Shown: positions 1 to 34,073, numbered from the stretch's first letter. The stretch is 64,000 nucleotides of DNA from Cyanophora paradoxa CCMP329 (GCA_004431415.1 QPMI01000039.1:1-64000), one strand, 5' to 3'. A program made the numbers and translations. The notes: a model not told the origin generated them from the letters alone.

Positions 1-3000
1 CTCGACCTTCGCAGCCAGCGTCCGCGCTCCGCCGCCAGCGTTCGCGCTCCGCCGCCAGCTCCTCGGACCGCGCCCGCGCCGCTCCAGCTCGGCCGACTGC
101 TCGGCCACGCGCGCCTCCAGCGCCACCGCCTCCGCCGCCGCCGCGCCCAGCTCCGCCACGCGCGCCTCCAGCGCCGCCTTCTCGGCCTCCAGCGCACGGG
201 CCGGCCCTCCGCCTCCTCGGCGCGGCTCTCGGCCTCTGCCCGCGCCTGCGCCGCTTCCAGCTCCGCCCCCGAGGTCGGCGTCCCGCGACCGCGTCTCCGG
301 CTCGGCCTTCTCGGCGCTCTCGAGCTCCTCCACCGCGCCGTCAGCGCCGCCAGCTCCTCCCCGAGGCCGCCCCGCCGCAGCCCGCCGCTCGTGCTCGCGC
401 GCCGCTCCTCGGCCTCGCCGCCGCTGCTCGGCCCGCGCCCGCCGCCAGCTCCGCCTCGAGCGCCTCCACGCGCGCCTCGGCCCGCGCCAGCTCCGCCTCC
501 CGCTCCGCCAGCGCCGCCCGGCTCGACGCCGCCGACGTCTGCAGCGCCGCCACACAGCGTCCCGTCTCGTCGCTGCCCAGCGATGCGTCCCGCTCGCCGG
601 CCTCCGTCGCTGGCGCCGCCGCCGCCGCCGCTGCCGCCGCTGCGGCCGCACCGCGGCCGACGCCGACGCTTCCAGCTCCGCGCACCGCGCCGCAGCGCCT
701 CGGCCTCTGCCCGCGCCGCCTCCAGCGCCTGGAAGCCTCCGCGGCCCGCGCCCGGGATTCCTCGCCCTCAGCGGACCCGGCCTCGAGCGCCTCGACCTTC
801 GCAGCCAGCGTCTCGCGCCGCGTTCGCGCTCCGCCGCCAGCTCCTCGGACCGCGCCCGCGCCGCCTCCAGCTCGGCCGACTGCTCGGCCACGCGCGCCTC
901 CAGCGCCGCCGCCGCCGCCGCCGCCGCGCCCAGCTCCGCCACGCGCGCCTCCAGCGCCGCCTTCTCGGCCTCCAGCGCACGGGCCCGGCCCTCCGCCTCC
1001 TCGGCGCGGCTCTCGGCCTCTGCCCGCGCCTGCGCCGCTTCCAGCTCCGCCCCGAGGTCGGCGTCCCGCGACCGCGTCTCCGGCTCGGCCTTCTCGGCGC
1101 TCTCGAGCTCCTCCACCCGCGCCGTCAGCGCCGCCAGCTCCTCCCGAGGCCCGCCGCCGCCGCAGCCCGCCGCTCGTGCTCGCGCGCCGCCTCCTCGGCC
1201 TCCCGCCGCTGCTCGGCCCGCGCCGCCGCCAGCTCCGCCTCGAGCGCCTCCACGCGCGCCTCGGCCCGCGCCAGCTCCGCCTCCCGCTCCGCCAGCGCCG
1301 CCCGGCTCGACGCCGCCGACGTCTGCAGCGCCGCCACAACAGCGTCCGTCTCGTCGCTGCCCAGGATGCCGCTCGCCGGCCTCCGTCGCTGGCGCCGCCG
1401 CCGCCGCCGCCACCGCGCGCCACCGCGGCCGCCGACGCTTCCAGCTCCGTGCACCGCGCCCGCAGCGCCTGCGGCTCTGCCCGCGCCGCCTCCAGCGCAA
1501 GCCTCCGCGGCCCGCGCCCGGGATTCCTCGCCCTCAGCGGACGCCTTCGACTCGCCGCCAGCGTTCGCGCTCGACGCCAGCGTTCGCGCCGCCAGCGTTC
1601 GCGCTCCGCCGCCAGCTCCTCGGACCGCGCCCGCGCCGCCTCCAGCTCGGCCGACTGCTCGGCCACGCGCGCCTCCAGCGCCACCGCCTCCGCCGCCGCC
1701 GCGCCCAGCTCCGCCACGCGCGCCTCCAGCGCCGCCTTCTCGGCCTCCAGCGCACGGGCCCGGCCCTCCGCCTCCTCGGCGCGGCTCTCGGCCTCTGCCC
1801 GCGCCTGCGCCGCTTCCAGCTCCGCCCCGAGGTCGGCGTCCCGCGACCGCGTCTCGCCGGCTCCGCGCCCTCGAGCGCTCTCACTCGTCCGCCCGTCAGC
1901 GCCGCCAGCTCCTCCCCGAGGCCCGCCGCCGCCGCAGCCCGCCGCTCGTGCTCGCGCGCCGCCTCCTCGGCCTCCCGCCGCTGCTCGGCCCGCGCCGCCG
2001 CCAGCTCCGCCTCGAGCGCCTCCGCGCGCCTCGGCCCGCGCCAGCTCCGCCTCCCGCTCCGCCAGCGCCGCCCGGCTCGACGCCGCCGACGTCTGCAGCG
2101 CCGCCACGACAGCGTCCGTCTCGTCGCTGCCCAGCGATGCGTCCCGCTCGCCGCCTCCGTCGCTGGCGCCGCCGCCGCCGCCGCAGCCGCCGCTGCCGCC
2201 GCCACCGCGGCCGACGCCGACGCTTCCAGCTCCGTGCACCGAGCCCGCAGCGCCTCGGCCTCTGCCCGCGCCGCCTCCAGCGCGCTGGAAGCCTCCGCGG
2301 CCCGCGCCCGGGATTCCTCGCCTCAGCGGACGCCTTCCGACCTTCGCAGCGCGTCTCGCGCTCCGCCGCCAGCGTCTCGCGCTCCGCCGCCAGCTCCTCG
2401 GACCGCGCCCGCGCCGCCTCCAGCTCGGCCGACTGCTCGGCCACGCGCGCCTCCAGCGCCGCCGCGCCGCCGCCGCCGCCGCCGCCGCCCAGCTCCGCAC
2501 GCGCGCCTCCAGCGCCGCCTTCTCGGCTCCAGCGCACGGGCCCGGCCCTCCGCCTCCTCGGCGCGGCTCTCGGCCTCTGCCCGCGCCTGCGCGCTTCCAG
2601 CTCCGCCCGAGGTCGGCATCCCGCGACCGCGTCTCCGGCTCGGCCTTCTCGGCGCTCTCGAGTCCTCCACCGCGCCGTCAGCGCCGCCAGCTCCTCCCGA
2701 GGCCCGCCGCCGCCGCAGCCCGCCGCTCGTGCTCGCGCGCCGCCTCCTCGGCCTCCCGCCGCTGCTCGGCCCGCGCCGCCGCCAGCTCCGCCTCGAGCGC
2801 CTCCACGCGCGCCTCGGACCGCGCAGCTCCGCCTCCCGCTCCGCCAGCGCGCCCGGCTCGACGCGCCGACGTCTGCAGCGTCGCCACGACAGCGTCCGTC
2901 TCGTCGCTGCCCAGCGATGCGTCCCGCTCGCCGGCTCCGTCGCTGGCGCCGTCGCCGCGCCGCTGCCGCGTGCGGCCGCCACCACGGCCGACGCCGACGC

Positions 3001-6000
3001 TTCCAGCTCCGCGCACGCGCCGCAGCGCCTCGGCCTCTGCCGCGCCGCCTCCAGCGCGCTGGACGCCTCCGCGGCCCGCGCCGGGATTCTCGCCTCAGCG
3101 GACCCGGCCTCGAGCGCTCGACTTCGCCGCCAGCGTCTCGCGCTCCGCCGCCAGCGTTGCGCGCTCCGCGCAGCTCCTCGGACCGCGCCCGCGCCTCCAG
3201 CTCGGCGACTGCTCGCCACGCGCGCCTCAGCGCCGCGCGTCGCCGCCGCCGCGCGCCCAGCTCCGCCACGCGCGCCTCCAGGGTCGCCTTCTCGGCCTCC
3301 AGCGCACGGCCCGGCCCTCCGCTCTCGGCGCGGCTCTCGGCCTCTGCCGCGCCTGCGCCGCTTCCAGCTCCGCCCGAGGTCGGCATCCGCGACCGCGTCT
3401 CCGGCTCGGCCTTCTCGGCGCTCTCGAGCTCCTCCACCCGCACCGTCAGCGCAGCCAGCCTCCCCGAGGCCCGCCGCCGCCGCAGCCCGCGCTCGTGCTC
3501 GCGGCCGCCTCCTCGGCCTCCCGCCGCTGCTCGGCCCGCGCCGCCGCCAGCTCCGCCTCGAGCGCCTCCACGCGCGCCTCGGACCGCGCCAGCTCCGCCT
3601 CCCGCTCCGCCAGCGCCGCCCGGCTCGACGCCGCCGACGTCTGCAGCGCCGCCACAACAGCGTCCGTCTCGTCGCTGCCAGCGACGCGTCCCGCTCGCCG
3701 GCCTCCGTCGCTGGCGCCGCCGACGCTGCCGCAGCCGCCGCTGCCGCCGCCACCGCGGCCGACGCCGACGCTTCCAGCTCCGTGCACCGAGCCCGCAGCG
3801 CCTCGCCTCTGCCCGCGCCGCCTCCAGCGCGCTGGAAGCCTCCGCGGCCCGCGCCCGGGATTCCTCGCCCTCAGCGGACCCGGCCTCGAGCGCCTCGACC
3901 TTCGCAGCCAGCGTCTCGCGCTCCGCCGCCAGCTCCTCGGACTGCGCCGCGCCGCCTCCAGCTCGGCCGACTGCTCGGCCACGCGCGCCTCCAGCGCCAC
4001 CGCCTCCGCCGCCGCCGCGCCCAGCTCCGCCACGCGCGCCTCCAGCGCCGCCTTCTCGGCCTCCAGCGCACGGGCCCGGCCCTCCGCCTCCTCGGCCCGG
4101 CTCTCGGCCTCTGCCCGCGCCTGCGCCGCTTCCAGCTTCGCCCCGAGGTCGGCATCCGCGACCGCGTCTCCGGCTCGGCCCTCTCGGCGCTCTCGAGCTC
4201 CTCCACCCGCGCCGTCAGCGCCGCCAGCTCCTCCCGAGGCCCGCCGCCGCCGCAGCCGCCGCTCGTGCTCGCGCGCCGCCTCCTCGGCCTCCCGCCGCTG
4301 CTCGGCCCGCGCCGCCGCCAGCTCCGCCTCGAGCGCCTCCACGCGCGCCTCGGCCCGCGCCAGCTCCGCCTCCCGCTCCGCCAGCGCCGCCCGGCTCGAA
4401 GCCGCCGACGTCTGCAGCGCCGCCACGACAGCGTCCGTCTCGTCGCTGCCCAGCGACGCGTCCCGCTCGCCGGCCTCCGTCGCTGGCGCCGCCGACGCTT
4501 CCAGCTCCGCGCACCGAGCCCGCAGCGCCTCGGCCTCTGCCCGCGCCGCCTCCAGCGCGCTGGACGCCTCCGCGGCCCGCGCCCGGGATTCCTCGCCCTC
4601 AGCGGACCCGGCCTCGAGCGCCTCGACCTTCGCAGCCAGCGTCTCGCGCTCCGCCGCCAGCGTTTCGCGCTCCGCCGCCAGCGTTTCGCGCTCCGCCGCC
4701 AGCTCCTCGGACCGCGCCCGCGCCGCCTCCAGCTCGGCCGACTGCTCGGCCACGCGCGCCTCCAGCGCCACCCGCTCCGCCGCCGCCGCGCCCAGCTCCC
4801 CAACGCGTGCCTCCAGCGCCGCCTTCTCGGCCTCCAGCGCACGGGCCCGGCCCTCCGCCTCCTCGGCCCGGCTCTCGGCCTCTGCCCGCGCCTGCGCCGC
4901 TTCCAGCTCCGCCCCGAGGTCGGCGTCCCGCGACTGCATCTCCGGCTCGGCCTTCTCGGCGCTCTCGAGCTCCTCCACCCGCGCCGTCAGCGCCGCCAGC
5001 TCCTCCCCGAGGCCCGCCGCCGCCGCAGCCCGCCGCTCGTGCTCGCGCGCCGCCTCCTCGGCCTCCCGCCGCTGCTCGGCCCGCGCCGCCGCCAGCTCCG
5101 CCTCGAGCGCCTCCACGCGCGCCTCGGCCCGCGCCAGCTCCGCCTCCCGCTCCGCCAGCGCCGCCCGGCTCGACGCCGCCGACGTCTGCAGCGCCGCCAC
5201 GACAGCGTCCGTCTCGTCGCTGCCAGCGACGCGTCCCGCTCGCCGGCCTCCGTCGCTGGCGCCGCCGCCGCCGCCGCTGCCGCCGCTGCGGCCGCCAACG
5301 CGGCCGACGCCGACGCTTCCAGCTCCGCGCACCGAGCCCGCAGCGCCTCGGCCTCTGCCCGCGCCGCCTCCAGCACGCTGGACGCCTCCGCGGCCCGCGC
5401 CCGGGATTCCTCGCCCTCAGCGGACCCGGCCTCGAGCGCCTCGACCTTCGCAGCCAGCGTCTCGCGCTCCGCCGCCAGCGTTTCGCGCTCCGCCGCCAGC
5501 TCCTCGGACCGCGCCCGCGCCGCCTCCAGCTCGGCCGACTGCTCGGCCACGCGCGCCTCCAGCGCCGCCGCCGCCGCCGCCGCCGCGCCAGCTCCGCCAC
5601 GCGCGCCTCCAGCGCCGCCTTCTCGGCCTCCAGCGCACGGGCCCGGCCCTCCGCCTCCTCGGCGCGGCTCTCGGCCTCTGCCCGCGCCTGCGCCGCTTCC
5701 AGCTCCGCCCGAGGTCGGCGTCCCGCGACCGCGTCTCCGGCTCGGCCTTCTCGGCGCTCTCGAGCTCCTCCACCCGCACCGTCAGCGCAGCCAGCTCCTC
5801 CCGAGGCCCGCCGCCGCCGCAGCCCGCCGCTCGTGCTCGCGCGCCGCCTCCTCGGCCTCCCGCCGCTGCTCGGCCCGCGCCGCCGCCAGCTCCGCCTCGA
5901 GCGCCTCCACGCGCGCCTCGGACCGCGCCAGCTCCGCCTCCCGCTCCGCCAGCGCCGCCCGGCTCGACGCCGCCGACGTCTGCAGCGCCGCCACAACAGC

Positions 6001-9000
6001 GTCCGTCTCGTCGCTGCCCAGCGACGCGTCCCGCTCGCCGGCCTCCGTCGCTGGCGCCGCCGCCGCCGCCACAGCCGCCGCTGCGGCCGCCACCGCGGCC
6101 GCCGCCGACGCTTCCAGCTCCGGGCACCGAGCCCGCAGCGCCTCGGCCTCTGCCCGCGCCGCCTCCAGCGCGCTGGACGCCTCCGCGGCCCGCGCCCGGG
6201 ATTCCTCGCCCTCAGCGGACCCGGCCTCGAGCGCCTCGACCTTCGCAGCCAGCGTCTCGCGCTCCGCCGCCAGCGTTTCGCGCTCCGCCGCCAGCTCCTC
6301 GGACCGCGCCCGCGCCGCTCCAGCTCGGCCGACTGCTCGGCCACGCGCGCCTCCAGCGCCGCCGCCGCCGCCGCCGCCGCGCCCAGCTCCGCCACGCGCG
6401 CCTCCAGCGCCGCCTTCTCGGCCTCCAGCGCACGGGCCCGGCCCTCCGCCTCCTCGGCGCGGCTCTCGGCCTCTGCCCGCGCCTGCGCCGCTTCCAGCTC
6501 CGCCCGAGGTCGGCGTCCCGCGACGGCGTCTCCGGCTCGGCCTTCTCGGCGCTCTCGAGCTCCTCCACCCGCGCCGTCAGCGCCGCCAGCTCCTCCCGAG
6601 GCCTGCCGCTGCCGCAGCCCGCCGCTCGTGCTCGCGCGCCGCCTCCTCGGCCTCCCGCCGCTGCTCGGCCCGCGCCGCCGCCAGCTCCGCCTCGAGCGCC
6701 TCCACGCGCGCCTCGGACCGCGCCAGCTCCGCCTCCCGCTCCGCCAGCGCCGCCCGGCTCGACGCCGCCGACGTCTGCAGCGCCGCCACGACAGCGTCCG
6801 TCTCGTCGCTGCCCAGCGACGCGTCCCGCTCGCCGACCTCCGTCGCTGGCGCCGCCGCCGCCGCCGCTGCCGCCGCTGCGGCCGCCACCGCCACCGCCGC
6901 CGACGCTTCCAGCTCCGTGCACCGAGCCCGCAGCGCCTCGGCCTCTGCCCGCGCCGCCTCCAGCGCGCTGGAAGCCTCCGCGGCCCGCGCCCGGGATTCC
7001 TCGCCCTCAGCGGACCCGGCCTCGAGCGCCTCGACCTTCGCAGCCAGCGTCTCGCGCTCCGCCGCCAGCGTTTCGCGCTCCGCCGCCAGCGTTTCGCGCT
7101 CCGCCGCCAGCTCCTCGGACCGCGCCCGCGCCGCCTCCAGCTCGGCCGACTGCTCGGCCACGCGCGCCTCCAGCGCCACCGCCTCCGCCGCCGCCGCGCC
7201 CAGCTCCGCCACGCGCGCCTCCAGCGCCGCCTTCTCGGCCTCCAGCGCACGGGCCCGGCCCTCCGCCTCCTCGGCGCGGCTCTCGGCCTCTGCCCGCGCC
7301 TGCGCCGCTTCCAGCTCCGCCCCGAGGTCGGCGTCCCGCGACTGCGTCTCCGGCTCGGCCTTCTCGGCGCTCTCGAGCTCCTCCACCCGCGCCGTCAGCG
7401 CAGCCAGCTCCTCCCCGAGGCCCGCCGCTGCCGCAGCCCGCTGCTTGTGCTCGCGCGCCGCCTCCTCGGCCTCCCGCCGCTGCTCGGCCCGCGCCGCCGC
7501 CAGCTCCGCCTCGAGCACCTCCACGCGCGACTCGGCCCGCGCCAGCTCCGCCTCCCGCTCCGCCAGCGCCGCCCGGCTCGACGCCGCCGACGTCTGCAGC
7601 GCCGCCACAACAGCGTCCGTCTCGTCGCTGCCCAGTGATGCGTCCGCTCGCCGTCCTCCGTCGCTGGCGCCGCCGCCGCCGCCGCAGCCGCCGCTGCCGC
7701 CGCCACCGCGGCCGACGCCGACGCTTCCAGCTCCGTGCACCGAACCCGCAGCGCCTCGGCCTCTGCCCGCGCCGCCTCCAGCGCGCTGGAAGCCTCCGCG
7801 GCCCGCGCCCGGATTCCTCGCCCTCAGCGGACCCGGCCTCGAGCGCCTCGACCTTCGCAGCCAGCGTCTCGCGCTCCGCCGCCAGCTCCTCGGACCGCGC
7901 CCGCGCCGCCTCCAGCTCGGCCGACTGCTCGGCCACGCGCGCCTCCAGCGCCACCGCCTCCGCCGCCGCCGCGCCCAGCTCCGCCACGCGCGCCTCCAGC
8001 GCCGCCTTCTCGGCCTCCAGCGCACGGGCCCGGCCCTCCGCCTCCTCGGCGCGGCTCTCGGCCTCTGCCCGCGCCTGCGCCGCTTCCAGCTCCGCCCCGA
8101 GGTCGGCGTCCCGCGACCGCGTCTCCGGCTCGGCCTTCTCGGCGCTCTCGAGCTCCTCCACCCGCGCCGTCAGCGCCGCCAGCTCCTCCCGAGGCCCGCC
8201 GCCGCCGCAGCCCGCCGCTCGTGCTCGCGCGCCGCCTCCTCGGCCTCCCGCCGCTGCTCGGCCGCGCCGCCGCCAGCTCCGCCTCGAGCGCCTCCACGCG
8301 CGCCTCGGACCGCGCCAGCTCCGCTCCCGCTCCGCCAGCGCCGCCCGGCTCGACGCCGCCGACGTCTGCAGCGCCGCCACGACAGCGTCCGTCTCGTCGC
8401 TGCCCAGCGACGCGTCCCGCTCGCCGGCCTCCGTCGCTGGCGCCGCCGCCGCCGCCGCTGCCGCCGCTGCGGCCGCCACCGCGGCCGACGCCGACGCTTC
8501 CAGCTCCGCGCACCGAGCCCGCAGCGCCTCGGCCTCTGCCCGCGCCGCCTCCAGCGCGCTGGAAGCCTCCGCGGCCCGCGCCCGGGATTCCTCGCCCTCA
8601 GCGGACCCGGCCTCGAGCGCCTCGACCTTCGCAGCCAGCGTCTCGCGCTCCGCCGCCAGCTCCTCGGACCGCGCCCGCGCCGCCTCCAGCTCGGCCGACT
8701 GCTCGGCCACGCGCGCCTCCAGCGCCACCCGATCCGCCGCCGCCGCGCCCAGCTCCGCCACGCGCGCCTCCAGCGCCGCCTTCTCGGCCTCCAGCGCACG
8801 GGCCCGGCCCTCCGCCTCCTCGGCGCGGCTCTCGGCCTCTGCCCGCGCCTGCGCCGCTTCCAGCTCCGCCCCGAGGTCGGCGTCCCGCGACTGCGTCTCC
8901 GGCTCGGCCTTCTCGGCGCTCTCGAGCTCCTCCACCCGCACCGTCAGCGCCGCCAGCTCCTCCCCGAGGCCCGCCGCTGCCGCAGCCCGCCGCTTGTGCT

Positions 9001-10294: not shown

Positions 10295-10331
<37 letters not shown>

Positions 10332-11881: not shown

Positions 11882-11918
<37 letters not shown>

Positions 11919-17900: not shown

Positions 17901-20457
17901 AGCCCGCAGCGCCTCGGCCTCTGCCCGCGCCGCCTCCAGCGCGCTGGAAGCCTCCGCGGCCCGCGCCCGGGATTCCTCGCCCTCAGCGGACCCGGCCTCG
18001 AGCGCCTCGACCTTCGCAGCCAGCGTCTCGCGCTCCGCCGCCAGCTCCTCGGACCGCGCCCGCGCCGCCTCCAGCTCGGCCGACTGCTCGGCCACGCGCG
18101 CCTCCAGCGCCACCGCCTCCGCCGCCGCCGCGCCCAGCTCCGCCACGCGCGCCTCCAGCGCCGCCTTCTCGGCCTCCAGCGCACGGGCCCGGCCCTCCGC
18201 CTCCTCGGCGCGGCTCTCGGCCTCTGCCCGCGCCTGCGCCGCTTCCAGCTCCGCCCCGAGGTCGGCGTCCCGCGACCGCGTCTCCGGCTCGGCCTTCTCG
18301 GCGCTCTCGAGCTCCTCCACCCGCGCCGTCAGCGCCGCCAGCTCCTCCCCGAGGCCCGCCGCCGCCGCAGCCCGCCGCTCGTGCTCGCGCGCCGCCTCCT
18401 CGGCCTCCCGCCGCTGCTCGGCCCGCGCCGCCGCCAGCTCCGCCTCGAGCGCCTCCACGCGCGCCTCGGACCGCGCCAGCTCCGCCTCCCGCTCCGCCAG
18501 CGCCGCCCGGCTCGACGCCGCCGACGTCTGCAGCGCCGCCACGACAGCGTCCGTCTCGTCGCTGCCCAGCGACGCGTCCCGCTCGCCGGCCTCCGTCGCT
18601 GGCGCCGCCGCCGCCGCCGCTGCCGCCGCTGCGGCCGCCACCGCGGCCGACGCCGACGCTTCCAGCTCCGCGCACCGAGCCCGCAGCGCCTCGGCCTCTG
18701 CCCGCGCCGCCTCCAGCGCGCTGGAAGCCTCCGCGGCCCGCGCCCGGGATTCCTCGCCCTCAGCGGACCCGGCCTCGAGCGCCTCGACCTTCGCAGCCAG
18801 CGTCTCGCGCTCCGCCGCCAGCTCCTCGGACCGCGCCCGCGCCGCCTCCAGCTCGGCCGACTGCTCGGCCACGCGCGCCTCCAGCGCCACCCGCTCCGCC
18901 GCCGCCGCGCCCAGCTCCGCCACGCGCGCCTCCAGCGCCGCCTTCTCGGCCTCCAGCGCACGGGCCCGGCCCTCCGCCTCCTCGGCGCGGCTCTCGGCCT
19001 CTGCCCGCGCCTGCGCCGCTTCCAGCTCCGCCCCGAGGTCGGCGTCCCGCGACTGCGTCTCCGGCTCGGCCTTCTCGGCGCTCTCGAGCTCCTCCACCCG
19101 CACCGTCAGCGCAGCCAGCTCCTCCCCGAGGCCCGCCGCTGCCGCAGCCCGCCGCTCGTGCTCGCGCGCCGCCTCCTCGGCCTCCCGCCGCTGCTCGGCC
19201 CGCGCCGCCGCCAGCTCCGCCTCGAGCGCCTCCACGCGCGACTCGGCCCGCGCCAGCTCCGCCTCCCGCTCCGCCAGCGCCGCCCGGCTCGACGCCGCCG
19301 ACGTCTGCAGCGCCGCCACAACAGCGTCCGTCTCGTCGCTGCCCAGTGATGCGTCCCGCTCGCCGGCCTCCGTCGCTGGCGCCGCCGCCGCCGCCGCAGC
19401 CGCCGCTGCCGCCGCCACCGCGGCCGACGCCGACGCTTCCAGCTCCGTGCACCGAACCCGCAGCGCCTCGGCCTCTGCCCGCGCCGCCTCCAGCACGCTG
19501 GAAGCCTCCGCGGCCCGCGCCCGGGATTCCTCGCCCTCAGCGGACCCGGCCTCGAGCGCCTCGACCTTCGCAGCCAGCGTCTCGCGCTCCGCCGCCAGCT
19601 CCTCGGACCGCGCCCGCGCCGCCTCCAGCTCGGCCGACTGCTCGGCCACGCGCGCCTCCAGCGCCACCGCCTCCGCCGCCGCCGCGCCCAGCTCCGCCAC
19701 GCGCGCCTCCAGCGCCGCCTTCTCGGCCTCCAGCGCACGGGCCCGGCCCTCCGCCTCCTCGGCGCGGCTCTCGGCCTCTGCCCGCGCCTGCGCCGCTTCC
19801 AGCTCCGCCCCGAGGTCGGCGTCCCGCGACCGCGTCTCCGGCTCGGCCTTCTCGGCGCTCTCGAGCTCCTCCACTCGCGCCGTCAGCGCCGCCAGCTCCT
19901 CCCGAGGCCCGCCGCCGCCGCAGCCCGCCGCTCGTGCTCGCGCGCCGCCTCCTCGGCCTCCCGCCGCTGCTCGGCCCGCGCCGCCGCCAGCTCCGCCTCG
20001 AGCGCCTCCACGCGCGCCTCGGACCGCGCCAGCTCCGCCTCCCGCTCCGCCAGCGCCGCCCGGCTCGACGCCGCCGACGTCTGCAGCGCCGCCACGACAG
20101 CGTCCGTCTCGTCGCTGCCCAGCGACGCGTCCCGCTCGCCGGCCTCCGTCGCTGGCGCCGCCGCCGCCGCCGCTGCCGCCGCTGCGGCCGCCACCGCGGC
20201 CGACGCCGACGCTTCCAGCTCCGCGCACCGAGCCCGCAGCGCCTCGGCCTCTGCCCGCGCCGCCTCCAGCGCGCTGGACGCCTCCGCGGCCCGCGCCCGG
20301 GATTCCTCGCCCTCAGCGGACCCGGCCTCGAGCGCCTCGACCTTCGCAGCCAGCGTCTCGCGCTCCGCCGCCAGCGTTTCGCGCTCCGCCGCCAGCTCCT
20401 CGGACCGCGCCCGCGCCGCCTCCAGCTCGGCCGACTGCTCGGCCACGCGCGCCTCCA

Positions 20458-20494
<37 letters not shown>

Positions 20495-21267
20495 GCCCAG
20501 CTCCGCCACGCGCGCCTCCAGCGCCGCCTTCTCGGCCTCCAGCGCACGGGCCCGGCCCTCCGCCTCCTCGGCGCGGCTCTCGGCCTCTGCCCGCGCCTGC
20601 GCCGCTTCCAGCTCCGCCCCGAGGTCGGCGTCCCGCGACTGCGTCTCCGGCTCGGCCTTCTCGGCGCTCTCGAGCTCCTCCACCCGCACCGTCAGCGCAG
20701 CCAGCTCCTCCCCGAGGCCCGCCGCTGCCGCAGCCCGCCGCTCGTGCTCGCGCGCCGCCTCCTCGGCCTCCCGCCGCTGCTCGGCCCGCGCCGCCGCCAG
20801 CTCCGCCTCGAGCGCCTCCACGCGCGCCTCGGACCGCGCCAGCTCCGCCTCCCGCTCCGCCAGCGCCGCCCGGCTCGACGCCGCCGACGTCTGCAGCGCC
20901 GCCACGACAGCGTCCGTCTCGTCGCTGCCCAGCGACGCGTCCCGCTCGCCGGCCTCCGTCGCTGGCGCCGCCGCCGCCGCCGCTGCCGCCGCTGCGGCCG
21001 CCACCGCGGCCGACGCCGACGCTTCCAGCTCCGCGCACCGAGCCCGCAGCGCCTCGGCCTCTGCCCGCGCCGCCTCCAGCGCGCTGGACGCCTCCGCGGC
21101 CCGCGCCCGGGATTCCTCGCCCTCAGCGGACCCGGCCTCGAGCGCCTCGACCTTCGCAGCCAGCGTCTCGCGCTCCGCCGCCAGCGTTTCGCGCTCCGCC
21201 GCCAGCTCCTCGGACCGCGCCCGCGCCGCCTCCAGCTCGGCCGACTGCTCGGCCACGCGCGCCTCCA

Positions 21268-21304
<37 letters not shown>

Positions 21305-22077
21305 GCCCAGCTCCGCCACGCGCGCCTCCAGCGCCGCCTTCTCGGCCTCCAGCGCACGGGCCCGGCCCTCCGCCTCCTCGGCGCGGCTCTCGGCCTCTGC
21401 CCGCGCCTGCGCCGCTTCCAGCTCCGCCCCGAGGTCGGCGTCCCGCGACCGCGTCTCCGGCTCGGCCTTCTCGGCGCTCTCGAGCTCCTCCACCCGCACC
21501 GTCAGCGCAGCCAGCTCCTCCCCGAGGCCCGCCGCTGCCGCAGCCCGCCGCTTGTGCTCGCGCGCCGCCTCCTCGGCCTCCCGCCGCTGCTCGGCCCGCG
21601 CCGCCGCCAGCTCCGCCTCGAGCGCCTCCACGCGCGCCTCGGACCGCGCCAGCTCCGCCTCCCGCTCCGCCAGCGCCGCCCGGCTCGACGCCGCCGACGT
21701 CTGCAGCGCCGCCACGACAGCGTCCGTCTCGTCGCTGCCCAGCGACGCGTCCCGCTCGCCGGCCTCCGTCGCTGGCGCCGCCGCCGCCGCCGCTGCCGCC
21801 GCTGCGGCCGCCACCGCGGCCGACGCCGACGCTTCCAGCTCCGCGCACCGAGCCCGCAGCGCCTCGGCCTCTGCCCGCGCCGCCTCCAGCGCGCTGGAAG
21901 CCTCCGCGGCCCGCGCCCGGGATTCCTCGCCCTCAGCGGACCCGGCCTCGAGCGCCTCGACCTTCGCAGCCAGCGTCTCGCGCTCCGCCGCCAGCGTTTC
22001 GCGCTCCGCCGCCAGCTCCTCGGACCGCGCCCGCGCCGCCTCCAGCTCGGCCGACTGCTCGGCCACGCGCGCCTCCA

Positions 22078-22114
<37 letters not shown>

Positions 22115-25100
22115 GCCCAGCTCCGCCACGCGCGCCTCCAGCGCCGCCTTCTCGGCCTCCAGCGCACGGGCCCGGCCCTCCGCCTCCTCGGCGCGGCTCT
22201 CGGCCTCTGCCCGCGCCTGCGCCGCTTCCAGCTCCGCCCCGAGGTCGGCGTCCCGCGACTGCATCTCCGGCTCGGCCTTCTCGGCGCTCTCGAGCTCCTC
22301 CACCCGCACCGTCAGCGCAGCCAGCTCCTCCCCGAGGCCCGCCGCCGCCGCAGCCCGCCGCTCGTGCTCGCGCGCCGCCTCCTCGGCCTCCCGCCGCTGC
22401 TCGGCCCGCGCCGCCGCCAGCTCCGCCTCGAGCGCCTCCACGCGCGCCTCGGCCCGCGCCAGCTCCGCCTCCCGCTCCGCCAGCGCCGCCCGGCTCGACG
22501 CCGCCGACGTCTGCAGCGCCGCCACGACAGCGTCCGTCTCGTCGCTGCCCAGTGATGCGTCCCGCTCGCCGGCCTCCGTCGCTGGCGCCGCCGCCGCCGC
22601 CGCAGCCGCCGCTGCCGCCGCCACCGCGGCCGACGCCGACGCTTCCAGCTCCGTGCACCGAACCCGCAGCGCCTCGGCCTCTGCCCGCGCCGCCTCCAGC
22701 GCGCTGGAAGCCTCCGCGGCCCGCGCCCGGGATTCCTCGCCCTCAGCGGACCCGGCCTCGAGCGCCTCGACCTTCGCAGCCAGCGTCTCGCGCTCCGCCG
22801 CCAGCTCCTCGGACCGCGCCCGCGCCGCCTCCAGCTCGGCCGACTGCTCGGCCACGCGCGCCTCCAGCGCCGCCGCCGCCGCCGCCGCCGCGCCCAGCTC
22901 CGCCACGCGCGCCTCCAGCGCCGCCTTCTCGGCCTCCAGCGCACGGGCGCGGCCCTCCGCCTCCTCGGCGCGGCTCTCGGCCTCTGCCCGCGCCTGCGCC
23001 GCTTCCAGCTCCGCCCCGAGGTCGGCGTCCCGCGACTGCGTCTCCGGCTCGGCCTTCTCGGCGCTCTCGAGCTCCTCCACCCGCACCGTCAGCGCAGCCA
23101 GCTCCTCCCCGAGGCCCGCCGCCGCCGCAGCCCGCCGCTCGTGCTCGCGCGCCGCCTCCTCGGCCTCCCGCCGCTGCTCGGCCCGCGCCGCCGCCAGCTC
23201 CGCCTCGAGCGCCTCCACGCGCGCCTCGGCCCGCGCCAGCTCCGCCTCCCGCTCCGCCAGCGCCGCCCGGCTCGACGCCGCCGACGTCTGCAGCGCCGCC
23301 ACGACAGCGTCCGTCTCGTCGCTGCCCAGCGACGCGTCCCGCTCGCCGGCCTCCGTCGCTGGCGCCGCCGCCGCCGCCGCAGCCGCCGCTGCCGCCGCCA
23401 CCGCGGCCGACGCCGACGCTTCCAGCTCCGTGCACCGAACCCGCAGCGCCTCGGCCTCTGCCCGCGCCGCCTCCAGCGCGCTGGAAGCCTCCGCGGCCCG
23501 CGCCCGGGATTCCTCGCCCTCAGCGGACCCGGCCTCGAGCGCCTCGACCTTCGCAGCCAGCGTCTCGCGCTCCGCCGCCAGCTCCTCGGACCGCGCCCGC
23601 GCCGCCTCCAGCTCGGCCGACTGCTCGGCCACGCGCGCCTCCAGCGCCGCCGCCGCCGCCGCCGCCGCGCCCAGCTCCGCCACGCGCGCCTCCAGCGCCG
23701 CCTTCTCGGCCTCCAGCGCACGGGCGCGGCCCTCCGCCTCCTCGGCGCGGCTCTCGGCCTCTGCCCGCGCCTGCGCCGCTTCCAGCTCCGCCCCGAGGTC
23801 GGCGTCCCGCGACTGCGTCTCCGGCTCGGCCTTCTCGGCGCTCTCGAGCTCCTCCACCCGCACCGTCAGCGCAGCCAGCTCCTCCCCGAGGCCCGCCGCC
23901 GCCGCAGCCCGCCGCTCGTGCTCGCGCGCCGCCTCCTCGGCCTCCCGCCGCTGCTCGGCCCGCGCCGCCGCCAGCTCCGCCTCGAGCGCCTCCACGCGCG
24001 CCTCGGCCCGCGCCAGCTCCGCCTCCCGCTCCGCCAGCGCCGCCCGGCTCGACGCCGCCGACGTCTGCAGCGCCGCCACGACAGCGTCCGTCTCGTCGCT
24101 GCCCAGCGACGCGTCCCGCTCGCCGGCCTCCGTCGCTGGCGCCGCCGCCGCCGCCGCAGCCGCCGCTGCCGCCGCCACCGCGGCCGACGCCGACGCTTCC
24201 AGCTCCGTGCACCGAACCCGCAGCGCCTCGGCCTCTGCCCGCGCCGCCTCCAGCGCGCTGGAAGCCTCCGCGGCCCGCGCCCGGGATTCCTCGCCCTCAG
24301 CGGACCCGGCCTCGAGCGCCTCGACCTTCGCAGCCAGCGTCTCGCGCTCCGCCGCCAGCTCCTCGGACCGCGCCCGCGCCGCCTCCAGCTCGGCCGACTG
24401 CTCGGCCACGCGCGCCTCCAGCGCCACCGCCGCCGCCGCCGCCGCGCCCAGCTCCGCCACGCGCGCCTCCAGCGCCGCCTTCTCGGCCTCCAGCGCACGG
24501 GCCCGGCCCTCCGCCTCCTCGGCGCGGCTCTCGGCCTCTGCCCGCGCCTGCGCCGCTTCCAGCTCCGCCCCGAGGTCGGCGTCCCGCGACCGCGTCTCCG
24601 GCTCGGCCTTCTCGGCGCTCTCGAGCTCCTCCACCCGCGCCGTCAGCGCCGCCAGCTCCTCCCCGAGGCCCGCCGCCGCCGCAGCCCGCCGCTCGTGCTC
24701 GCGCGCCGCCTCCTCGGCCTCCCGCCGCTGCTCGGCCCGCGCCGCCGCCAGCTCCGCCTCGAGCGCCTCCACGCGCGCCTCGGACCGCGCCAGCTCCGCC
24801 TCCCGCTCCGCCAGCGCCGCCCGGCTCGACGCCGCCGACGTCTGCAGCGCCGCCACGACAGCGTCCGTCTCGTCGCTGCCCAGCGACGCGTCCCGCTCGC
24901 CGGCCTCCGTCGCTGGCGCCGCCGCCGCCGCCGCAGCCGCCGCTGCCGCCGCCACCGCGGCCGACGCCGACGCTTCCAGCTCCGTGCACCGAACCCGCAG
25001 CGCCTCGGCCTCTGCCCGCGCCGCCTCCAGCGCGCTGGAAGCCTCCGCGGCCCGCGCCCGGGATTCCTCGCCCTCAGCGGACCCGGCCTCGAGCGCCTCG

Positions 25101-26185
25101 ACCTTCGCAGCCAGCGTCTCGCGCTCCGCCGCCAGCGTTTCGCGCTCTGCCGCCAGCGTTTCGCGCTCCGCCGCCAGCTCCTCGGACCGCGCCCGCGCTG
25201 CCTCCAGCTCGGCCGACTGCTCGGCCACGCGCGCCTCCAGCGCCGCCACCGCCGCCGCCGCCGCGCCCAGCTCCGCCACGCGCGCCTCCAGGGTCGCCTT
25301 CTCGGCCTCCAGCGCACGGGCGCGGCCCTCCGCCTCCTCGGCGCGGCTCTCGGCCTCTGCCCGCGCCTGCGCCGCTTCCAGCTCCGCCCCGAGGTCGGCG
25401 TCCCGCGACCGCGTCTCCGGCTCTGCCTTCTCGGCGCTCTCGAGCTCCTCCACCCGCGCCGTCAGCGCCGCCAGCTCCTCCCCGAGGCCCGCCGCCGCCG
25501 CAGCCCGCCGCTCGTGCTCGCGCGCCGCCTCCTCGGCCTCCCGCCGCTGCTCGGCCCGCGAGGCCGCCAGCTCCGCCTCGAGCGCCTCCACGCGCGCCTC
25601 GGCCCGCGCCAGCTCCGCCTCCCGCTCCGCCAGCGCCGCCCGGCTCGACGCCGCCGACGTCTGCAGCGCCGCCACGACAGCGTCCGTCTCGTCGCTGCCC
25701 AGCGACGAGGCCCGCTCGCCGGCCTCCATCGCTGGCGCCGCCGCCGCCGCCGCTGCCGCCACTGCCGCCGCCACCGCGGCCGCCGCCGACGCTTCCAGCT
25801 CCGTGCACCGAACCCGCAGCGCCTCGGCCTCTGCCCGCGCCGCCTCCAGCGCGCTGGAAGCCTCCGCGGCCCGCGCCCGGGATTCCTCGCCCTCAGCGGA
25901 CCCGGCCTCGAGCGCCTCGACCTTCGCAGCCAGCGTCTCGCGCTCGGCCGCCAGCTCCTCGGACCGCGCCCGCGCCGCCTCCAGCTCGGCCGACTGCTCG
26001 GCCACGCGCGCCTCCAGCGCCACCCGCTCCGCCGCCGCCGCGCCCAGCTCCGCCACGCGCGCCTCCAGCGCCGCCTTCTCGGCCTCCAGCGCACGGGCCC
26101 GGCCCTCCGCCTCCTCGGCCCGACTCTCGGCCTCTGCCCGCGCCTGCGCCGCTTCCAGCTCCGCCCCGAGGTCGGCGTCCCGCGA
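1..26185 (-). repeat. Coding tandem array, ~34 copies of a 777-bp unit (length variants ~798, 810, 819, ~728 bp)
   Basis: Marker TCAGCGGA recurs at 768, 1534, 2323, ... 13323, 14100, 14877, ... 22743, 23520, 24297, 25074, 25893 (33 occurrences plus partial ends). The unit encodes SRDADLGAELEAAQARAEAE...ELESAEKAEPET. Confidence 0.97.
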
Positions 26186-29100
26186 CCGCCCCTCGAACGC
26201 CGCCAGGCGCTCCTCCGCGTCGCGCAGGCGGGCCTCGAGGTCGGCGCGCTCGGCGGCCGCCGCGGCCAGCTCGGCGACGCGCGCCTGGAGGGCCGCCATG
26301 GCCCCCTCCGCCTCCCGCGCGCTCGTGTCCAGCGGGTTCGGCGGCGACTCGGGCGCAGCGGCGGGCGCGGGGGCGCGGGCCGCCTGCCCCGCGCCCCGCG
26401 GGGACTCCACCATCTCCCAGTCGTCTTCGTAGCGCTCCTCCGCCTCGTCCCCCGCCTCGCTCACCCGCCGGCTCCGCTCGGCCGCCTCGCTGGCCGCCCG
26501 GCTCGCCGCCGCGCTCGCCGGCGCCGATGAGCGCGCCTGCCGCTCCGCCTCCAGCTGCCGCTCGACGGCCGCCAGCTCCCGCGCCAGCGCCTCCTTCTCG
26601 TCCACCGCCGCCTTGAGCGCCGCGGCGATGCCGGCCGCCTCCGCCGCCTCCGCCGCCGCCTGCGGCCGCGCCTCCGCCTCCGCCAGCAGCGCCGCCATGT
26701 GTTCCACGCGCGCCAGCAGGCCGTCCCGCTCCGCCCGCAGCCGCACTAGCTCGCCGCTCGCGCCCTCCGCCGCCGCCGCCGCCGCCGGCGCCGCCGGACG
26801 GATCGGCGAGGCGCCCGAAAGGTCCAGCGAGGCGTCTAGGGCCGCCCGGCCGGGAGTCCGCGGCGGCTTGCCGGGCGTCCGCGGCTCCGCCTGCACGAAC
26901 GACTCCTCGTACTCGTCTTCCGCTTCCTCGTCCTCCTCGTCCTCCAAGTCCGCGCCGTCCTCGGCGGCGAAGGATTGCTCGAGGGCCCCCGCGAGCCGCG
27001 CCAGCCGCACGCTGTAGTTCGCCGCCTCCTCCGCCGCCGCCTCCGCCTCGGCCGCGCACTTCGGCCGCCGCGCGTCCTCCAGCTCGGCCCGCAGCGCCGC
27101 CAGCTCCGCGTCCCGCTCGGCGAGCTCCCGCGCGCGGCGGGCGAGGAAAGAGCGCAGGCAGTCGGCCACGCTGTTCGCCACGGCCGCCTCCTGGAGCGCC
27201 GCGTCGCGCTCAGCGAGCCACGCCCGCACCGCCTCCGCGTCCCCGGCCAGCGCGGCCCGCAGGCGCGCCCCGTCGGCGCGCGCGCGCTCGAGCTCCTCCC
27301 GCCACTCGGCCTCCTGCGCCTCCGCCTCCAGGGCCCGCCGCTTCAGCTCGGCGTTCAGGCGCCCAACCTCACGCAGGCTGCCGCGCGGGGCGTCGGGCGT
27401 CTTATGGGGTGAGGTGGGGGGGGGCGGAGGGGCGAGAGCGCACCAGTCCGAGAGGGGATCTCCGCCGGTCCCGCCGCCACCCCCGAAGAGGCGCGCGGCC
27501 GGCCCTGCTCGCCGCCCTCCTCCGGGCCGGCGCCGGCGCCGGCGCCGCCCCGAGTCCCGGACTGGCCGGCGCCGCGGGAAGCGAGGGGCGCCCCGCCGCC
27601 GCTGCTCGCCCTCCGCGCGCCCTCCAGTCCGTCGCTCGGCTTGTCGGCGCCCTCGCCCGCCGCCGACGCCGCCATCGCAGCCGAGAGCGCCGCGCAGGGC
27701 CCGCACGGCGCCCCGCCCGGCGCCGGCGCCGGCGCCCGCGCGGCCGCTGCCGCCGCCGCCGCCTCGGCGCGCGCCGCCTTCTCCGCGCCCTTCGCGTCCT
27801 CGAGCTCGTCCCGCAGCCGGCCGACCTGCGCGGAGGCGCGGGCGCCCGCCCTGTCAGCGCCGCGGGCGGAGTGCCGGGAGCGGCCGGGCCCGCTCCCTCA
27901 CTCACCTCGACGCGCAGCTCTGCGATTTCGATCTCCATCTCGCGCATTCGCGCCTCCTGCTGCTCCGCGGGCGGCGGGTTCGGAGGCGGAGGAAGGGAGG
28001 ACGAGGAGGCGCCGCCCAGGGACGCCCGGAGGCTCTCCCGCCGGACGCCGGCCGCCGCGGCCGCGATGCCGGCCAGCACCTTGCGCTGCAGGTCCGCGAC
28101 CTGCGCCTCCAGCTCGGCGGCGCCCGCCTTGGAAGCCTCCAGCTCCTCCTCCAGCGCCCGCGCCCGCCCCTCCACCTCGAACTTGGCCGTGTACAGCTGC
28201 CGCTCCGAATTACACCAAATTTCTCGCAGGGCTCTATGTGATTTTATGCTTGGTGTTCTGAGCGCGAACCTGGACGCGCTCCTCGAGCATTCCGCGGAGG
28301 GCGCCCTCGGCGCGGCGGGCGCCGGCCGACAGCTCCTCGCCGGCGGGCCGCGAGGGGGCCTGTTCCTCTTCCGCCCCGGCGCCGCCCCGCGAAGCGGCGT
28401 CCAGAAGCGCGAGCTGCCGGGAACGCTTAAGACGTGGCAAACGAAAGCGGGCGGGAGGAGGCTTCGACGACGCCGCACCATGCGCCCGACGCTGACGGAG
28501 ACCTCGGAGAGCGCGGCGGCGTCCCCGTCGGCCGACGCGGATTGCCCGGCGGCGGCCAGCTCGGCCCGGGCGCGCTCGAGCTCCGCCTCCAGATCGGCCG
28601 CGTGCTCGGCGGCGGCCGCCTGCAGCTCCGCGGCGGTGGCCGACGACTGCGCCCGAACCAGCGCGAGCTCCTCCGCCCGCGCGTGCGCCGCCTCGAGCTC
28701 CGCCGACTGCTCCGCGACGCGCGCCTGCAGCGCCGCCGCCGCCGCGTTCGCCGCCGCGCCCAGCTCCGCAACGTGCGCCTGAAGAGCCTCGACCTTGGCG
28801 GCTGCCTCCGAAGAAGCCGCTTCCAGCTCCGCGCACCGCGCCCGCAGCGCCTCGGCCTCTGCCCGCGCCGCCTCCAGCGCGCTGGACGCCTCCGCGGCCC
28901 GCGCCCGGGATTCCTCGCCCTCAGCGGACCCGGCCTCGAGCGCCTCGACCTTCGCAGCCAGCGTCTCGCGCTCCGCCGCCAGCGTTTCGCGCTCTGCCGC
29001 CAGCGTTTCGCGCTCCGCCGCCAGCTCCTCGGACCGCGCCCGCGCTGCCTCCAGCTCGGCCGACTGCTCGGCCACGCGCGCCTCCAGCGCCGCCACCGCC

Positions 29101-33429: not shown

Positions 33430-34073
33430 CTCCAGCCTATGGATTCTTTCGACAAGGCTGCTCGCAGTTGACGCGGATCAAATCCCGCCGGGTCGCGCGG
33501 AAGCGGCGCGGCTCACGCACACTGCAGGTGGGATCGGAATCGAGGAAGAAGAAGACGAGCTGGCCGCGTTTTCCACCGGCCTACTCATCACGCCGCATTC
33601 CTGCAGCCTCGCGACAAGATCCGTGTACCCGGCCCGAACGCGGCAACCAAAGAAAGCACCCTCCGCAGAGAGCCCCGCGGCCGCGCGCAACAATGCCGGC
33701 GATAAGGTGGTCATTCGAAGCTGGATCAGAGCCGGCCCCGAGCAGAGCACCTCGTCAGCTCGCGCGGACACGTGCTCAACCCCGCCGCGATCTGGAGCAC
33801 CGACCCGGCCGCTCGGCCGCAGTCACGAGGAGGAATCCCACTTTCAGCCGGGGCGCCGGCCGCGTAGCCTTCGTGACACCCGGCCAAAAGACGCGAAGCG
33901 GCGAATCGGGGCTCCTGGAGGAGCGGCGGCAGAACGGGCCCTTGCACAGCACAGGCAGCACGTCGGATGAGTCGGCGCAGCGGCAGCGCAAGCCCAAGTG
34001 CCCCTTTAAGTGGGCCCTGCCGCTCACGCGCGGACGCGGCGAGGGCGCGAGGCCGGGATCCGAGGCCCCGCGC

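What the first reader, a model, noticed from the sequence alone, without database searches (positions are those of the whole stretch)
1..27377. A >27-kb single exon encoding a ~9,000-aa modular coiled-coil rod
Seen: from the acceptor at ~27377 to the window edge there is no intron-like interruption, only ~34 near-identical 259-aa units, while the 5' part of the gene and both neighbouring genes have introns every few hundred bp. Established: coiled coils rise ~0.15 nm per residue. Inference: the visible array could span more than 1 micron, with a Pro/poly-Ala hinge in each unit (AAAPATEAGERDASLGSDE). This suggests an undescribed giant structural filament or length ruler (flagellar root, cortical or tether-type) whose size is set by repeat copy number.
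Basis: partly seen in the sequence, partly recalled or inferred. Interest (0 to 1): 0.75.

Follow-up and report, generated by a model that had tools for sequence, protein, structure and literature searches.

The report
Megadalton helical rod protein in glaucophyte
A single-celled alga, likely Cyanophora paradoxa, has a spliced, transcribed gene that ends in about 34 nearly identical 259-amino-acid repeats; the frameshifts in the assembled sequence are likely sequencing errors, so it likely encodes a protein of over 10,000 residues, predicted to be a roughly micron-long helical spacer inside the cell, for which I found no relative.

Summary
The array is real: 34 head-to-tail 777-bp units (96.8-100% alike) run from 26164 to the window edge on the - strand, at the 3' end of a gene with 17 predicted short introns. 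As assembled it is not one open frame: 107 frameshifting indels, none in units 1-7, 4 in units 8-21, 103 in units 22-33. They look like long-read errors; at the first one, the dominant short-read contig of 4 of 4 runs restores the frame. Short-read depth gives roughly 27-38 copies, and spliced RNA runs hold the unit and the unit-to-unit junction. The read-through product is at least ~10,800 aa (~1.1 MDa), acidic, predicted all-helical, with three helix breaks per unit, heptad periodicity in two of three helices and four CDK-type motifs in linkers. The C-terminus is outside the window. No homologue was found. It fails the epiplastin and Sfi1 tests. It is built like trypanosome NUP-1 and worm ANC-1 but is not shown to be related. 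Best reading: an intracellular spacer or tether; a precise ruler is unsupported. The scan noted similar giant rods in other genomes, not this one.

The parts
33521..33588 (-). Predicted exon 1 with the likely start ATG at 33588; Ser-rich N-terminal tail
   Evidence: GT..AG intron of 63 nt (33520-33458) joins it in frame to exon 2; not checked in RNA joints
27444..33457 (-). Exons 2-17: unique N-terminal region (to aa ~1690), long Ala/Glu/Arg helices with Pro/Gly/Ser and acidic linkers
   Evidence: Stop-free spliced model. Three introns (31360-31293, 31175-31119, 31001-30946) shown spliced out in contigs of X15 and X16, and RNA pieces end at the exon edges 29696 and 32109
31551..31552 (.). One base missing from the assembly in a C run; short-read contigs restore the frame
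   Evidence: Extra C in X15, X16 and X1, at full depth of the contig that covers it; X17 has no cover listed
27479..27480 (.). One base missing from the assembly in a C run; short-read contig restores the frame
   Evidence: Extra C in X1 only; the three RNA runs have no cover listed there
29996..30428 (-). Older internal repeat of 177 bp (59 aa), about 2.5 copies, in exon 13
   Evidence: blastn self-match, 94% over 257 bp
28821..29570 (-). Isolated, nearly whole copy of the 777-bp unit inside exon 14
   Evidence: Local alignment, 20 mismatches and one +42-nt insertion
1..27377 (-). Exon 18, at least 27.4 kb, open at the window edge; stop codon and C-terminus not in the window
   Evidence: unspliced unit and junction contigs in RNA runs
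26165..27377 (-). Unique 404-aa segment before the array: long helices, acidic tract, low-confidence linkers
   Evidence: AlphaFold2 single-sequence model, pLDDT 70, pTM 0.29
26798..26878 (-). Linker with three full CDK-type motifs (S/T-P-x-K/R); a fourth lies at 29835-29824
   Evidence: 4 seen in 2,096 aa against 0.49 (whole shuffle, p 0.001) or 0.69 (local shuffle, p 0.006) expected
1..26164 (-). Tandem array: 34 units of 777 bp (variants 798, 810, 819 bp); each unit three predicted helices (aa 2-88, 93-146, 159-247) with breaks
19900..19903 (.). First frameshift in the array (one G missing from a GGGG run in unit 8)
   Evidence: Extra base in the dominant contig of X1, X8, X15 and X17
13595..19808 (-). 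Units 9-12 and 13-16: a 3.1-kb four-unit block present twice with no substitution
   Evidence: 0 substitutions and 2 one-base gaps in 3,108 bp; control blocks differ by 38 and 29 substitutions
33629..35380 (+). Neighbouring divergent gene, mitochondrial carrier; used to place the organism
   Evidence: 8 introns shown in three RNA runs; hit P0001, eukprot:tig00000157_g9593.t1; PF00153

Best explanation
This is a spliced, transcribed gene whose last exon holds about 34 near-identical 259-residue units and which likely encodes an intracellular, mostly helical rod of over 10,000 residues that would act as a long spacer or tether between binding sites at its unique ends. Shown: the array, the spliced 5' part, RNA over the unit and the unit junction, and correction of three frameshifts by short reads. 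Predicted: each unit is three long helices; Leu/Val heptad stretches (aa 26-85, 161-199, 227-241) alternate with Ala/Glu/Arg helices that lack a hydrophobic core and with a poly-Ala plus Pro/Gly/Asp hinge. Inferred: two or more chains pair through the heptad stretches into a jointed fibre of up to about 1.2 micron for the array; the negative charge (-29 per unit) keeps it extended; the unique head and the unseen tail do the anchoring, as in NUP-1; length drifts by unequal crossing-over, which also keeps the units alike; CDK-type sites in the linkers release or remodel it at division. Where it sits (nuclear periphery, basal-body roots, cortex under the alveoli, organelle surface) is not determined.
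For: Array and gene model. Frameshifts: 73 of 107 are one-base deletions, 34 of those 73 in runs of 3 or more (10% of bases lie in such runs), rising towards position 1; three tested sites are restored by short-read contigs. Head-to-tail junction contig at depth 1462 and 1852 (DNA) and 764 and 180 (RNA). Unit/unique depth in X1 27-38 with GC-matched contigs, 19-44 at the extremes. Codon-position GC of the unit (0.90/0.61/0.94) matches a spliced exon (0.91/0.62/0.91). No substitution to a stop among 62 alleles in units 1-29. Period 3.44 and 3.52 in helices 1 and 3, 0 of 500 shuffles as strong. In-frame indels in helix 1 add 7 or 14 residues, or 4 Ala that turn a Leu-Leu spacing of 10 into 14. 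No signal peptide by inspection and no transmembrane-type stretch other than poly-Ala in the first 4,172 aa. Variant sites are shuffled in blocks between units. Architecture parallels NUP-1.
Against: No homologue, so function rests on analogy. The C-terminus, which decides targeting in NUP-1, ANC-1 and golgins, is missing. Purifying selection between units is weak: pN/pS 0.53-0.64, p about 0.06. Helix 2 has no heptad period (237 of 500 shuffles as strong), and many core positions are Ala. The 7- and 14-residue indels are slippage of a 21-bp DNA repeat and four kinds of event only, so they are not independent proof of selection. pTM 0.33: intramolecular helical hairpins are not excluded, which would shorten the rod. 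Only 3 of 109 frameshifts were tested directly, and contigs drop rare variants, so one true frameshift in one unit could be hidden. RNA unit/5'-exon depth is 65-83, about twice the DNA ratio, which fits 3' bias but also a shorter array-only transcript. No protein-level evidence.
Confidence: 0.55

Rival explanations
1. The gene is real but the protein stops early, for example at ~4,200 aa after the first frameshift, and the distal array is decaying or untranslated.
For: The assembled sequence does stop at 19885-19883 and holds 107 frameshifts. Contigs cannot show a variant present in one unit of 35 reliably (notes). At 19900 the frame-restoring contig accounts for 1166 of 1558 summed depth in X1, not all of it.
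Against: Frameshifts rise steeply towards the edge while substitutions per unit stay at 7-18, which decay would not give; they sit in homopolymer runs; the same kind of error occurs in unique exons and is corrected; the extra base at 19900 was the only indel listed at a 1% threshold in 4 of 4 runs, with 28 of 30 bins covered; no nonsense substitutions.
Confidence: 0.12
2. The array is inflated or scrambled by the assembler; the true copy number is much lower.
For: Units 9-12 and 13-16 are identical over 3.1 kb. The array is longer than typical older long reads; a published assembly of the likely species used ~15-kb PacBio inserts (whether the window derives from it was not established).
Against: Short-read depth ratio 27-38 (range 19-44) in X1 matches the 35 visible copies; most units carry distinct variant patterns, and several of the variants are present in short-read contigs. 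At worst one block of four is a duplicate.
Confidence: 0.08
3. The protein is a compact or beaded chain: helices 3 and 1 of neighbouring units (89 and 87 aa) fold back into Ala-cored antiparallel hairpins, giving an elastic spring or a gel-like meshwork and not a micron rod.
For: Helices 1 and 3 are of equal length and are joined by a 3-residue break; Ala is 37% of the unit; ANC-1's repeats are now read as spectrin-like bundles.
Against: Net charge -29 per unit disfavours close packing; no fold match to spectrin or other bundles, 0 hits at E 0.001; low pTM shows no confident tertiary contacts.
Confidence: 0.15
4. The protein is a precise molecular ruler or template with one partner-binding site per unit, setting a periodic structure such as a striated root or the striated epiplast plates.
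For: Units are 98% alike and 259 = 37 x 7 residues; Cyanophora epiplast plates are striated and semicrystalline; GSBP1/2 bind a partner periodically.
Against: Unit length varies by 7, 11 and 14 residues in no regular order; copy number looks fluid; the unit has no aromatic residue and no Sfi1 motif; high identity is explained by homogenisation alone.
Confidence: 0.1

Closest known systems
NUP-1 of Trypanosoma brucei (PMC3313915, passages; PMC8255026, passages)
   Same: Acidic (pI 5.07 against 4.5 for the unit here), almost wholly coiled-coil or helical, central near-perfect repeats between unique ends, no transmembrane helix, repeats alike within a species, no detectable homologues far afield; termini act as hubs.
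   Different: 17 x 144 aa and 3,647 aa against 34 or more x 259 aa and ~10,800 aa or more; no sequence similarity found; nuclear location and C-terminal NLS of NUP-1 cannot be tested here; this gene has an intron-rich 5' part.
ANC-1 of Caenorhabditis elegans, giant KASH protein (PMC12422203, passages)
   Same: About 800 kDa, long helical middle made of tandem repeats, spacer role in positioning organelles.
   Different: ANC-1 has N-terminal calponin-homology domains, six ~900-aa spectrin-like repeats and a C-terminal transmembrane/KASH end; no CH or spectrin match here, C-terminus unseen.
GSBP1 and GSBP2 of Spirostomum minus (PMC9946354, passages)
   Same: Giant (13,125 and 17,974 aa), repeat-built, helical protist cytoskeletal proteins encoded without introns over tens of kb; hard to recover by standard RNA-seq.
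   Different: GSBPs carry hundreds of Trp-centred Sfi1-like centrin-binding motifs; the unit here has no Trp, Phe or Tyr.
Rootletin and SF-assemblin root fibres (PMC8435291, passages)
   Same: Long coiled-coil polymers at basal bodies, disassembled by mitotic phosphorylation.
   Different: No Pfam or sequence match; protist rootlets are described as SF-assemblin based; near-identical internal repeats are not described for them in the passages seen.
Epiplastins/articulins of Cyanophora (PMC6212826, section 6 part 1 and passages)
   Same: Low-complexity, charged (34%) repetitive proteins of the same alga's cortex.
   Different: Epiplastins are Val/Ile-rich, Ala-poor and beta-stranded; this unit is 3.9% V+I, 37% Ala, no VPV, all-helical.

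Membership tests
NUP-1 (trypanosomatid lamina) | Central block of near-perfect helical repeats between unique ends | tested here: met
   for the N-terminal end and the repeats; C-terminal end unseen
NUP-1 (trypanosomatid lamina) | Sequence homology to NUP-1 orthologues | tested here: inconclusive
   No hits; two of these searches were limited to proteins of at most 2,000 aa, and NUP-1 itself was not compared directly
NUP-1 (trypanosomatid lamina) | C-terminal NLS and location at the nuclear periphery | not testable with these tools
   C-terminus outside the window; no genome held
Lamins | Intermediate-filament rod domain | tested here: not met
   Pfam Filament only at E 0.018, 15 bits against a cut-off of 40, on one exon; size and repeat layout unlike lamins
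Lamins | CDK1 consensus site next to the rod (PMC5630835, passage) | tested here: met
   4 full motifs in linkers; not specific to lamins
Lamins | Ig-like tail domain, NLS and CaaX at the C-terminus | not testable with these tools
   C-terminus outside the window
Giant KASH proteins (ANC-1, nesprins) | N-terminal tandem calponin-homology domains | tested here: not met
   No CH match on 15 of 18 exons scanned with Pfam, singly or with in-frame introns; exons 1, 10 and 17 and the spliced whole were not scanned
Giant KASH proteins (ANC-1, nesprins) | Spectrin-like repeats | tested here: not met
   No Pfam match for the unit; 0 Foldseek matches at E 0.001 for a low-pTM model
Giant KASH proteins (ANC-1, nesprins) | C-terminal transmembrane helix and KASH peptide | not testable with these tools
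   C-terminus outside the window
Epiplastins/articulins | V+I about 33%, Ala and Gly nearly excluded, VPV motifs | tested here: not met
   V+I 3.9%, Ala 37.1%, 0 VPV against criteria
Epiplastins/articulins | Beta-strand, helix-free medial domain | tested here: not met
   Model is all helix
Sfi1/GSBP centrin-binding backbones | Trp-centred Sfi1 repeat | tested here: not met
   0 motif matches in the N-terminal 2,096 aa and in the unit; no aromatic residue in the unit
Rootletin / SF-assemblin | Family domain or sequence homology | tested here: not met
   Neither family among Pfam hits; no hits
Golgins / giantin | C-terminal GRIP, GRAB or tail anchor (recalled, from no call) | not testable with these tools
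   C-terminus outside the window; Atlas look-alikes GOLGA2 and HOOK1 are generic coiled-coil hits with low recognition
Coiled coils in general | Heptad periodicity of large hydrophobic residues | tested here: met
   Helices 1 and 3: 0 of 500 shuffles as strong; helix 2: not met, 237 of 500

The most novel reading that the evidence does not exclude
This is the main fibre of a glaucophyte-specific nucleoskeleton: an independently evolved lamina protein three times the length of trypanosome NUP-1, in which one chain can span a large part of the nucleus, is released by CDK phosphorylation of its linkers, and changes length by gaining or losing 259-residue units.
Probability: 0.15. Interest if true: 0.8.

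Novelty: new variant of a known kind. Interest (0 to 1): 0.5.

Why it matters
The proteins of glaucophyte non-microtubule fibres and of their nucleoskeleton are largely unnamed in the papers I saw, and glaucophytes sit near the base of the plant and algal lineage. A megadalton rod built by tandem amplification would be another independent case of the NUP-1/ANC-1/GSBP design, where unique ends bind and a homogenised repeat sets the span. At up to ~1.2-1.5 micron it would be a sizeable part of a 6-9 micron cell. One antibody to the unit would label 35 sites per chain, so localisation is easy to test. It also shows a class of gene that error-rich long-read assemblies break and protein databases then lack.

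Tried and rejected
Whole-genome search: no genome held, so the far end of the array and other copies could not be sought. No listed sequencing run is on record as RNA; X15-X17 are treated as RNA because their contigs are spliced. No silent stretch was laid as a control; if the 5.4-fold contig at 35351-35600 in X15 were all DNA, 35-44 copies would give ~190-240, against 753-1173 seen, but for X17 the same sum (4.5 x 35 = ~160 against 180-326) does not exclude DNA. 20158-20209 (poly-Ala) had no cover in any of 4 runs. Homologue searches: N-terminal piece with three in-frame introns against proteins of 404-2,000 aa, none of 7,998 candidates; same piece against 1.84 billion representatives, 0 at E 0.001; unit against proteins of 455-2,000 aa, none of 7,997 at E 1e-10; unit against metagenome contigs, 0 of 599 pattern matches confirmed. 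Proteins above 2,000 aa were not covered. Pfam: nothing above cut-off on single exons or one unit; HALZ and GBR2_CC pass only by summing eight units, with 0 stretches passing alone. Atlas: generic coiled-coil look-alikes with low recognition. Foldseek PDB: 0 of 312 matches at E 0.001. Homodimer prediction of one unit: no answer, score 0.00, no controls run. An Atg8-interacting-like motif (aa 2010-2015) is not above chance (p 0.23) and an SxIP-like motif at aa 15 lies in an exon not confirmed by RNA. Long + strand ORFs (up to 4,636 codons) rejected as GC artefacts: all three + frames of the unit are stop-free and the spliced introns read GT-AG on the - strand. Cryptic introns in the unit: 2 candidates in one variant, but high-depth RNA contigs cross that place unspliced. 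Literature: 9 searches found no paper on this gene; subscription journals are mostly absent and the supplement of PMC6704402 could not be read, so its published gene model and annotation are unseen.


Full report
Observation. The - strand from 26164 to position 1 holds 34 head-to-tail units (33 whole, one partial) with a base length of 777 bp, 259 codons. Units 1-29 are 96.8-100% identical, mean 98.4%. A 35th, nearly whole copy lies upstream at 29570-28821. Upstream of the array I built a gene model from GT..AG pairs: ATG at 33588, 17 introns of 40-133 nt, and an 18th exon from 27377 that begins with 404 unique codons. With an unknown base at two places where short reads show an extra letter, the model is stop-free for 4,172 codons down to 19937. 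The first two intron choices are by consensus only; intron 2 has alternatives, and the last intron is in frame without a stop, so it could be retained.

The frame is not open as assembled. The rod frame shifts at about 19900 and stops soon after. Against a clean unit there are 107 frameshifting indels: 0 in units 1-7, 4 in units 8-21, 103 in units 22-33; 73 are one-base deletions, 60 of those a G, and 34 of the 73 lie in runs of three or more although 10% of bases do; substitutions per unit stay between 0 and 18. This is the pattern of long-read consensus error with falling cover (established knowledge). Direct tests: in the unique part, contigs add one C at 31551 (X15, X16, X1) and at 27479 (X1), each restoring the frame. 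At the first array frameshift the dominant contig adds one C in 4 of 4 runs (depth 1166, 1437, 753, 251), and it was the only indel listed at a 1% threshold, with 28 of 30 bins covered. Limits: contigs collapse all units and drop rare variants, and the restoring contig is 1166 of 1558 summed depth in X1, so a true frameshift in a single unit is not excluded. I put the chance of an unbroken frame through the visible array at about 0.8.

Copy number and expression. In DNA run X1, four invariant unit contigs have depth 1166-1604 against 36.5-51.1 for four unique contigs of the same gene and about 62 for two at the neighbour: ratios 27-38, extremes 19-44. The tool warns that depth is no copy number, so this is rough, but it fits the 35 visible copies and leaves little room for a far longer array. 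Units 9-12 and 13-16 are identical over 3,108 bp apart from two one-base gaps: a very recent duplication or an assembly duplicate. X15, X16 and X17 are only guessed to be RNA, but their contigs skip 8 introns of the neighbour, and in X15 and X16 one contig joins 31702-31360 to 30944-30377 across exactly 234 letters, the two 117-nt exons between them. The two of these that were laid on the array (X15, X17) hold the unit and the head-to-tail junction unspliced (depth 764 and 180). Unit to 5'-exon depth is 65-83 in the three RNA runs, about twice the DNA ratio; 3' bias or a shorter transcript could explain it. A single 33-kb mRNA is not shown.

Organism. The divergent neighbour gene is a mitochondrial carrier whose only hit among 488 candidates is P0001, eukprot:tig00000157_g9593.t1. 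Gene ids of this style are used for Cyanophora paradoxa in PMC6704402 (section 15), which also reports many short introns (mean 86 bp). The style is not unique to one species, so the assignment is likely, not proven. Earlier notes of this scan on the same genome say the same; they are not independent.

Protein anatomy. Read through, the visible part is about 10,800 aa, 1.1 MDa, and lacks its C-terminus. The unit is 37% Ala, 21% Glu, 10% Arg, 9% Leu, has no aromatic residue, net charge -29 and pI 4.5. AlphaFold2 on two units without alignment gives helices at 2-88, 93-146 and 159-247, mean pLDDT 72.5, pTM 0.33. Large hydrophobic residues recur with period 3.44 in helix 1 and 3.52 in helix 3 (0 of 500 shuffles as strong), but not in helix 2 (237 of 500). 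Leu/Val-cored stretches cover 114 residues (26-85, 161-199, 227-241); between them lie helices with no large hydrophobic residue and many Glu/Arg pairs (4-25, 200-226), which resemble single alpha-helices (recalled), and the poly-Ala plus hinge segment (124-160). In-frame indels in units 1-28 are of four kinds: +7 and +14 residues (whole heptads), +4 Ala (which changes a Leu-Leu spacing from 10 to 14) and -15 in the poly-Ala segment. Among 62 alleles 24 are synonymous, none makes a stop; pN/pS 0.53-0.64, p about 0.06. The unique 404-aa segment is also long helices with low-confidence linkers and no globular domain. Four full CDK-type motifs lie in linkers of the first 2,096 aa, against 0.5-0.7 expected (p 0.001 and 0.006); ten patterns were looked at and two were shuffle-tested. 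No signal peptide is evident and the most hydrophobic windows are poly-Ala. Contour length of the array is 0.58, 0.89, 1.16 or 1.31 micron counting cored, periodic, helical or all residues; the cell is 6-9 micron long in the original description (PMC11356406, passage).

Mechanism. I commit, at 0.55, to an intracellular spacer or tether: chains pair through the heptad stretches, charge and single helices keep the fibre extended, hinges give it joints, the unique head and unseen tail anchor it, and CDK sites remodel it at division. The block-wise shuffling of variants among units points to unequal crossing-over and gene conversion, which explains both the identity and a drifting length. Pairing, extension, anchoring and phosphorylation are inferred. 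Rivals: early true stop (0.12), inflated array (0.08), fold-back hairpins (0.15), precise ruler (0.10).

Comparison. No homologue; no Pfam family above cut-off on single exons or one unit; no fold match; Atlas gives generic coiled coils. It works like NUP-1, 17 near-perfect 144-aa repeats, about 400 nm, termini as hubs (PMC3313915 and PMC8255026, passages), and like ANC-1 (PMC12422203, passages), but membership is not shown. It fails the criteria for epiplastins (PMC6212826, section 6 part 1 and passages) and for Sfi1-type GSBPs (PMC9946354, passages). GSBP genes are intronless and longer, so the exon size is no record. Rootletin and SF-assemblin (PMC8435291, passages) gave no match. PMC5630835 (passages) does not mention glaucophytes, and passages of PMC6240307, PMC9010356 and 10.1101/674762 added nothing on this protein, so whether this alga has lamins or NMCPs is untested here. 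Nine literature searches found no description of the gene; the supplement of the genome paper could not be read.

Verdict. Observation partly confirmed, interpretation partly supported. A real, transcribed, probably megadalton orphan rod; a new variant of a known kind of repeat-expanded scaffold protein. Interest 0.5.

Noticed in passing
window 33588-33629: The rod gene's likely ATG (33588, - strand) lies 41 bases from the 5' end of the spliced carrier RNA contigs (33629, + strand): a very tight head-to-head pair, likely a shared promoter or overlapping 5' ends.
   Followed up: partly
window 43489-49629: A 2.1-kb block present twice (97.9%, 2.84 kb apart) with ~740-bp direct repeats at 43490, 45594 and 46324 and a 350-bp partial copy at 49280; it sits between exons of a - strand gene and looks like tandem non-autonomous LTR-type elements.
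   Followed up: no
window 60673-61832 and 63473-64000: Two arrays of a ~160-bp GC-rich unit in inverted orientation around an AT-richer core with short tandem repeats; fold-back-element-like.
   Followed up: no
window 1-26500, + strand: All three + strand frames of the unit are stop-free, giving antisense ORFs up to 4,636 codons; PMC6704402 reports many such bidirectional ORFs in this alga without antisense transcription in the cases tested.
   Followed up: partly
window 26430-26400 and 33550-33530, - strand: An acidic Trp motif that fits the extended Atg8-interacting consensus (aa 2010-2015; p 0.23) and an SxIP-like motif in the Ser-rich first exon (aa 15-18); both weak.
   Followed up: partly
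window 26990-26890, - strand: A strongly acidic tract with two aromatic residues just before the CDK-motif linker; another acidic tract at ~29915-29885. Possible partner-binding linkers.
   Followed up: no
window 37800-43400 and 49600-55200, - strand: Two further intron-rich genes read by eye, one partly coiled-coil with a hydrophobic end, one multi-pass membrane-like; not identified.
   Followed up: no
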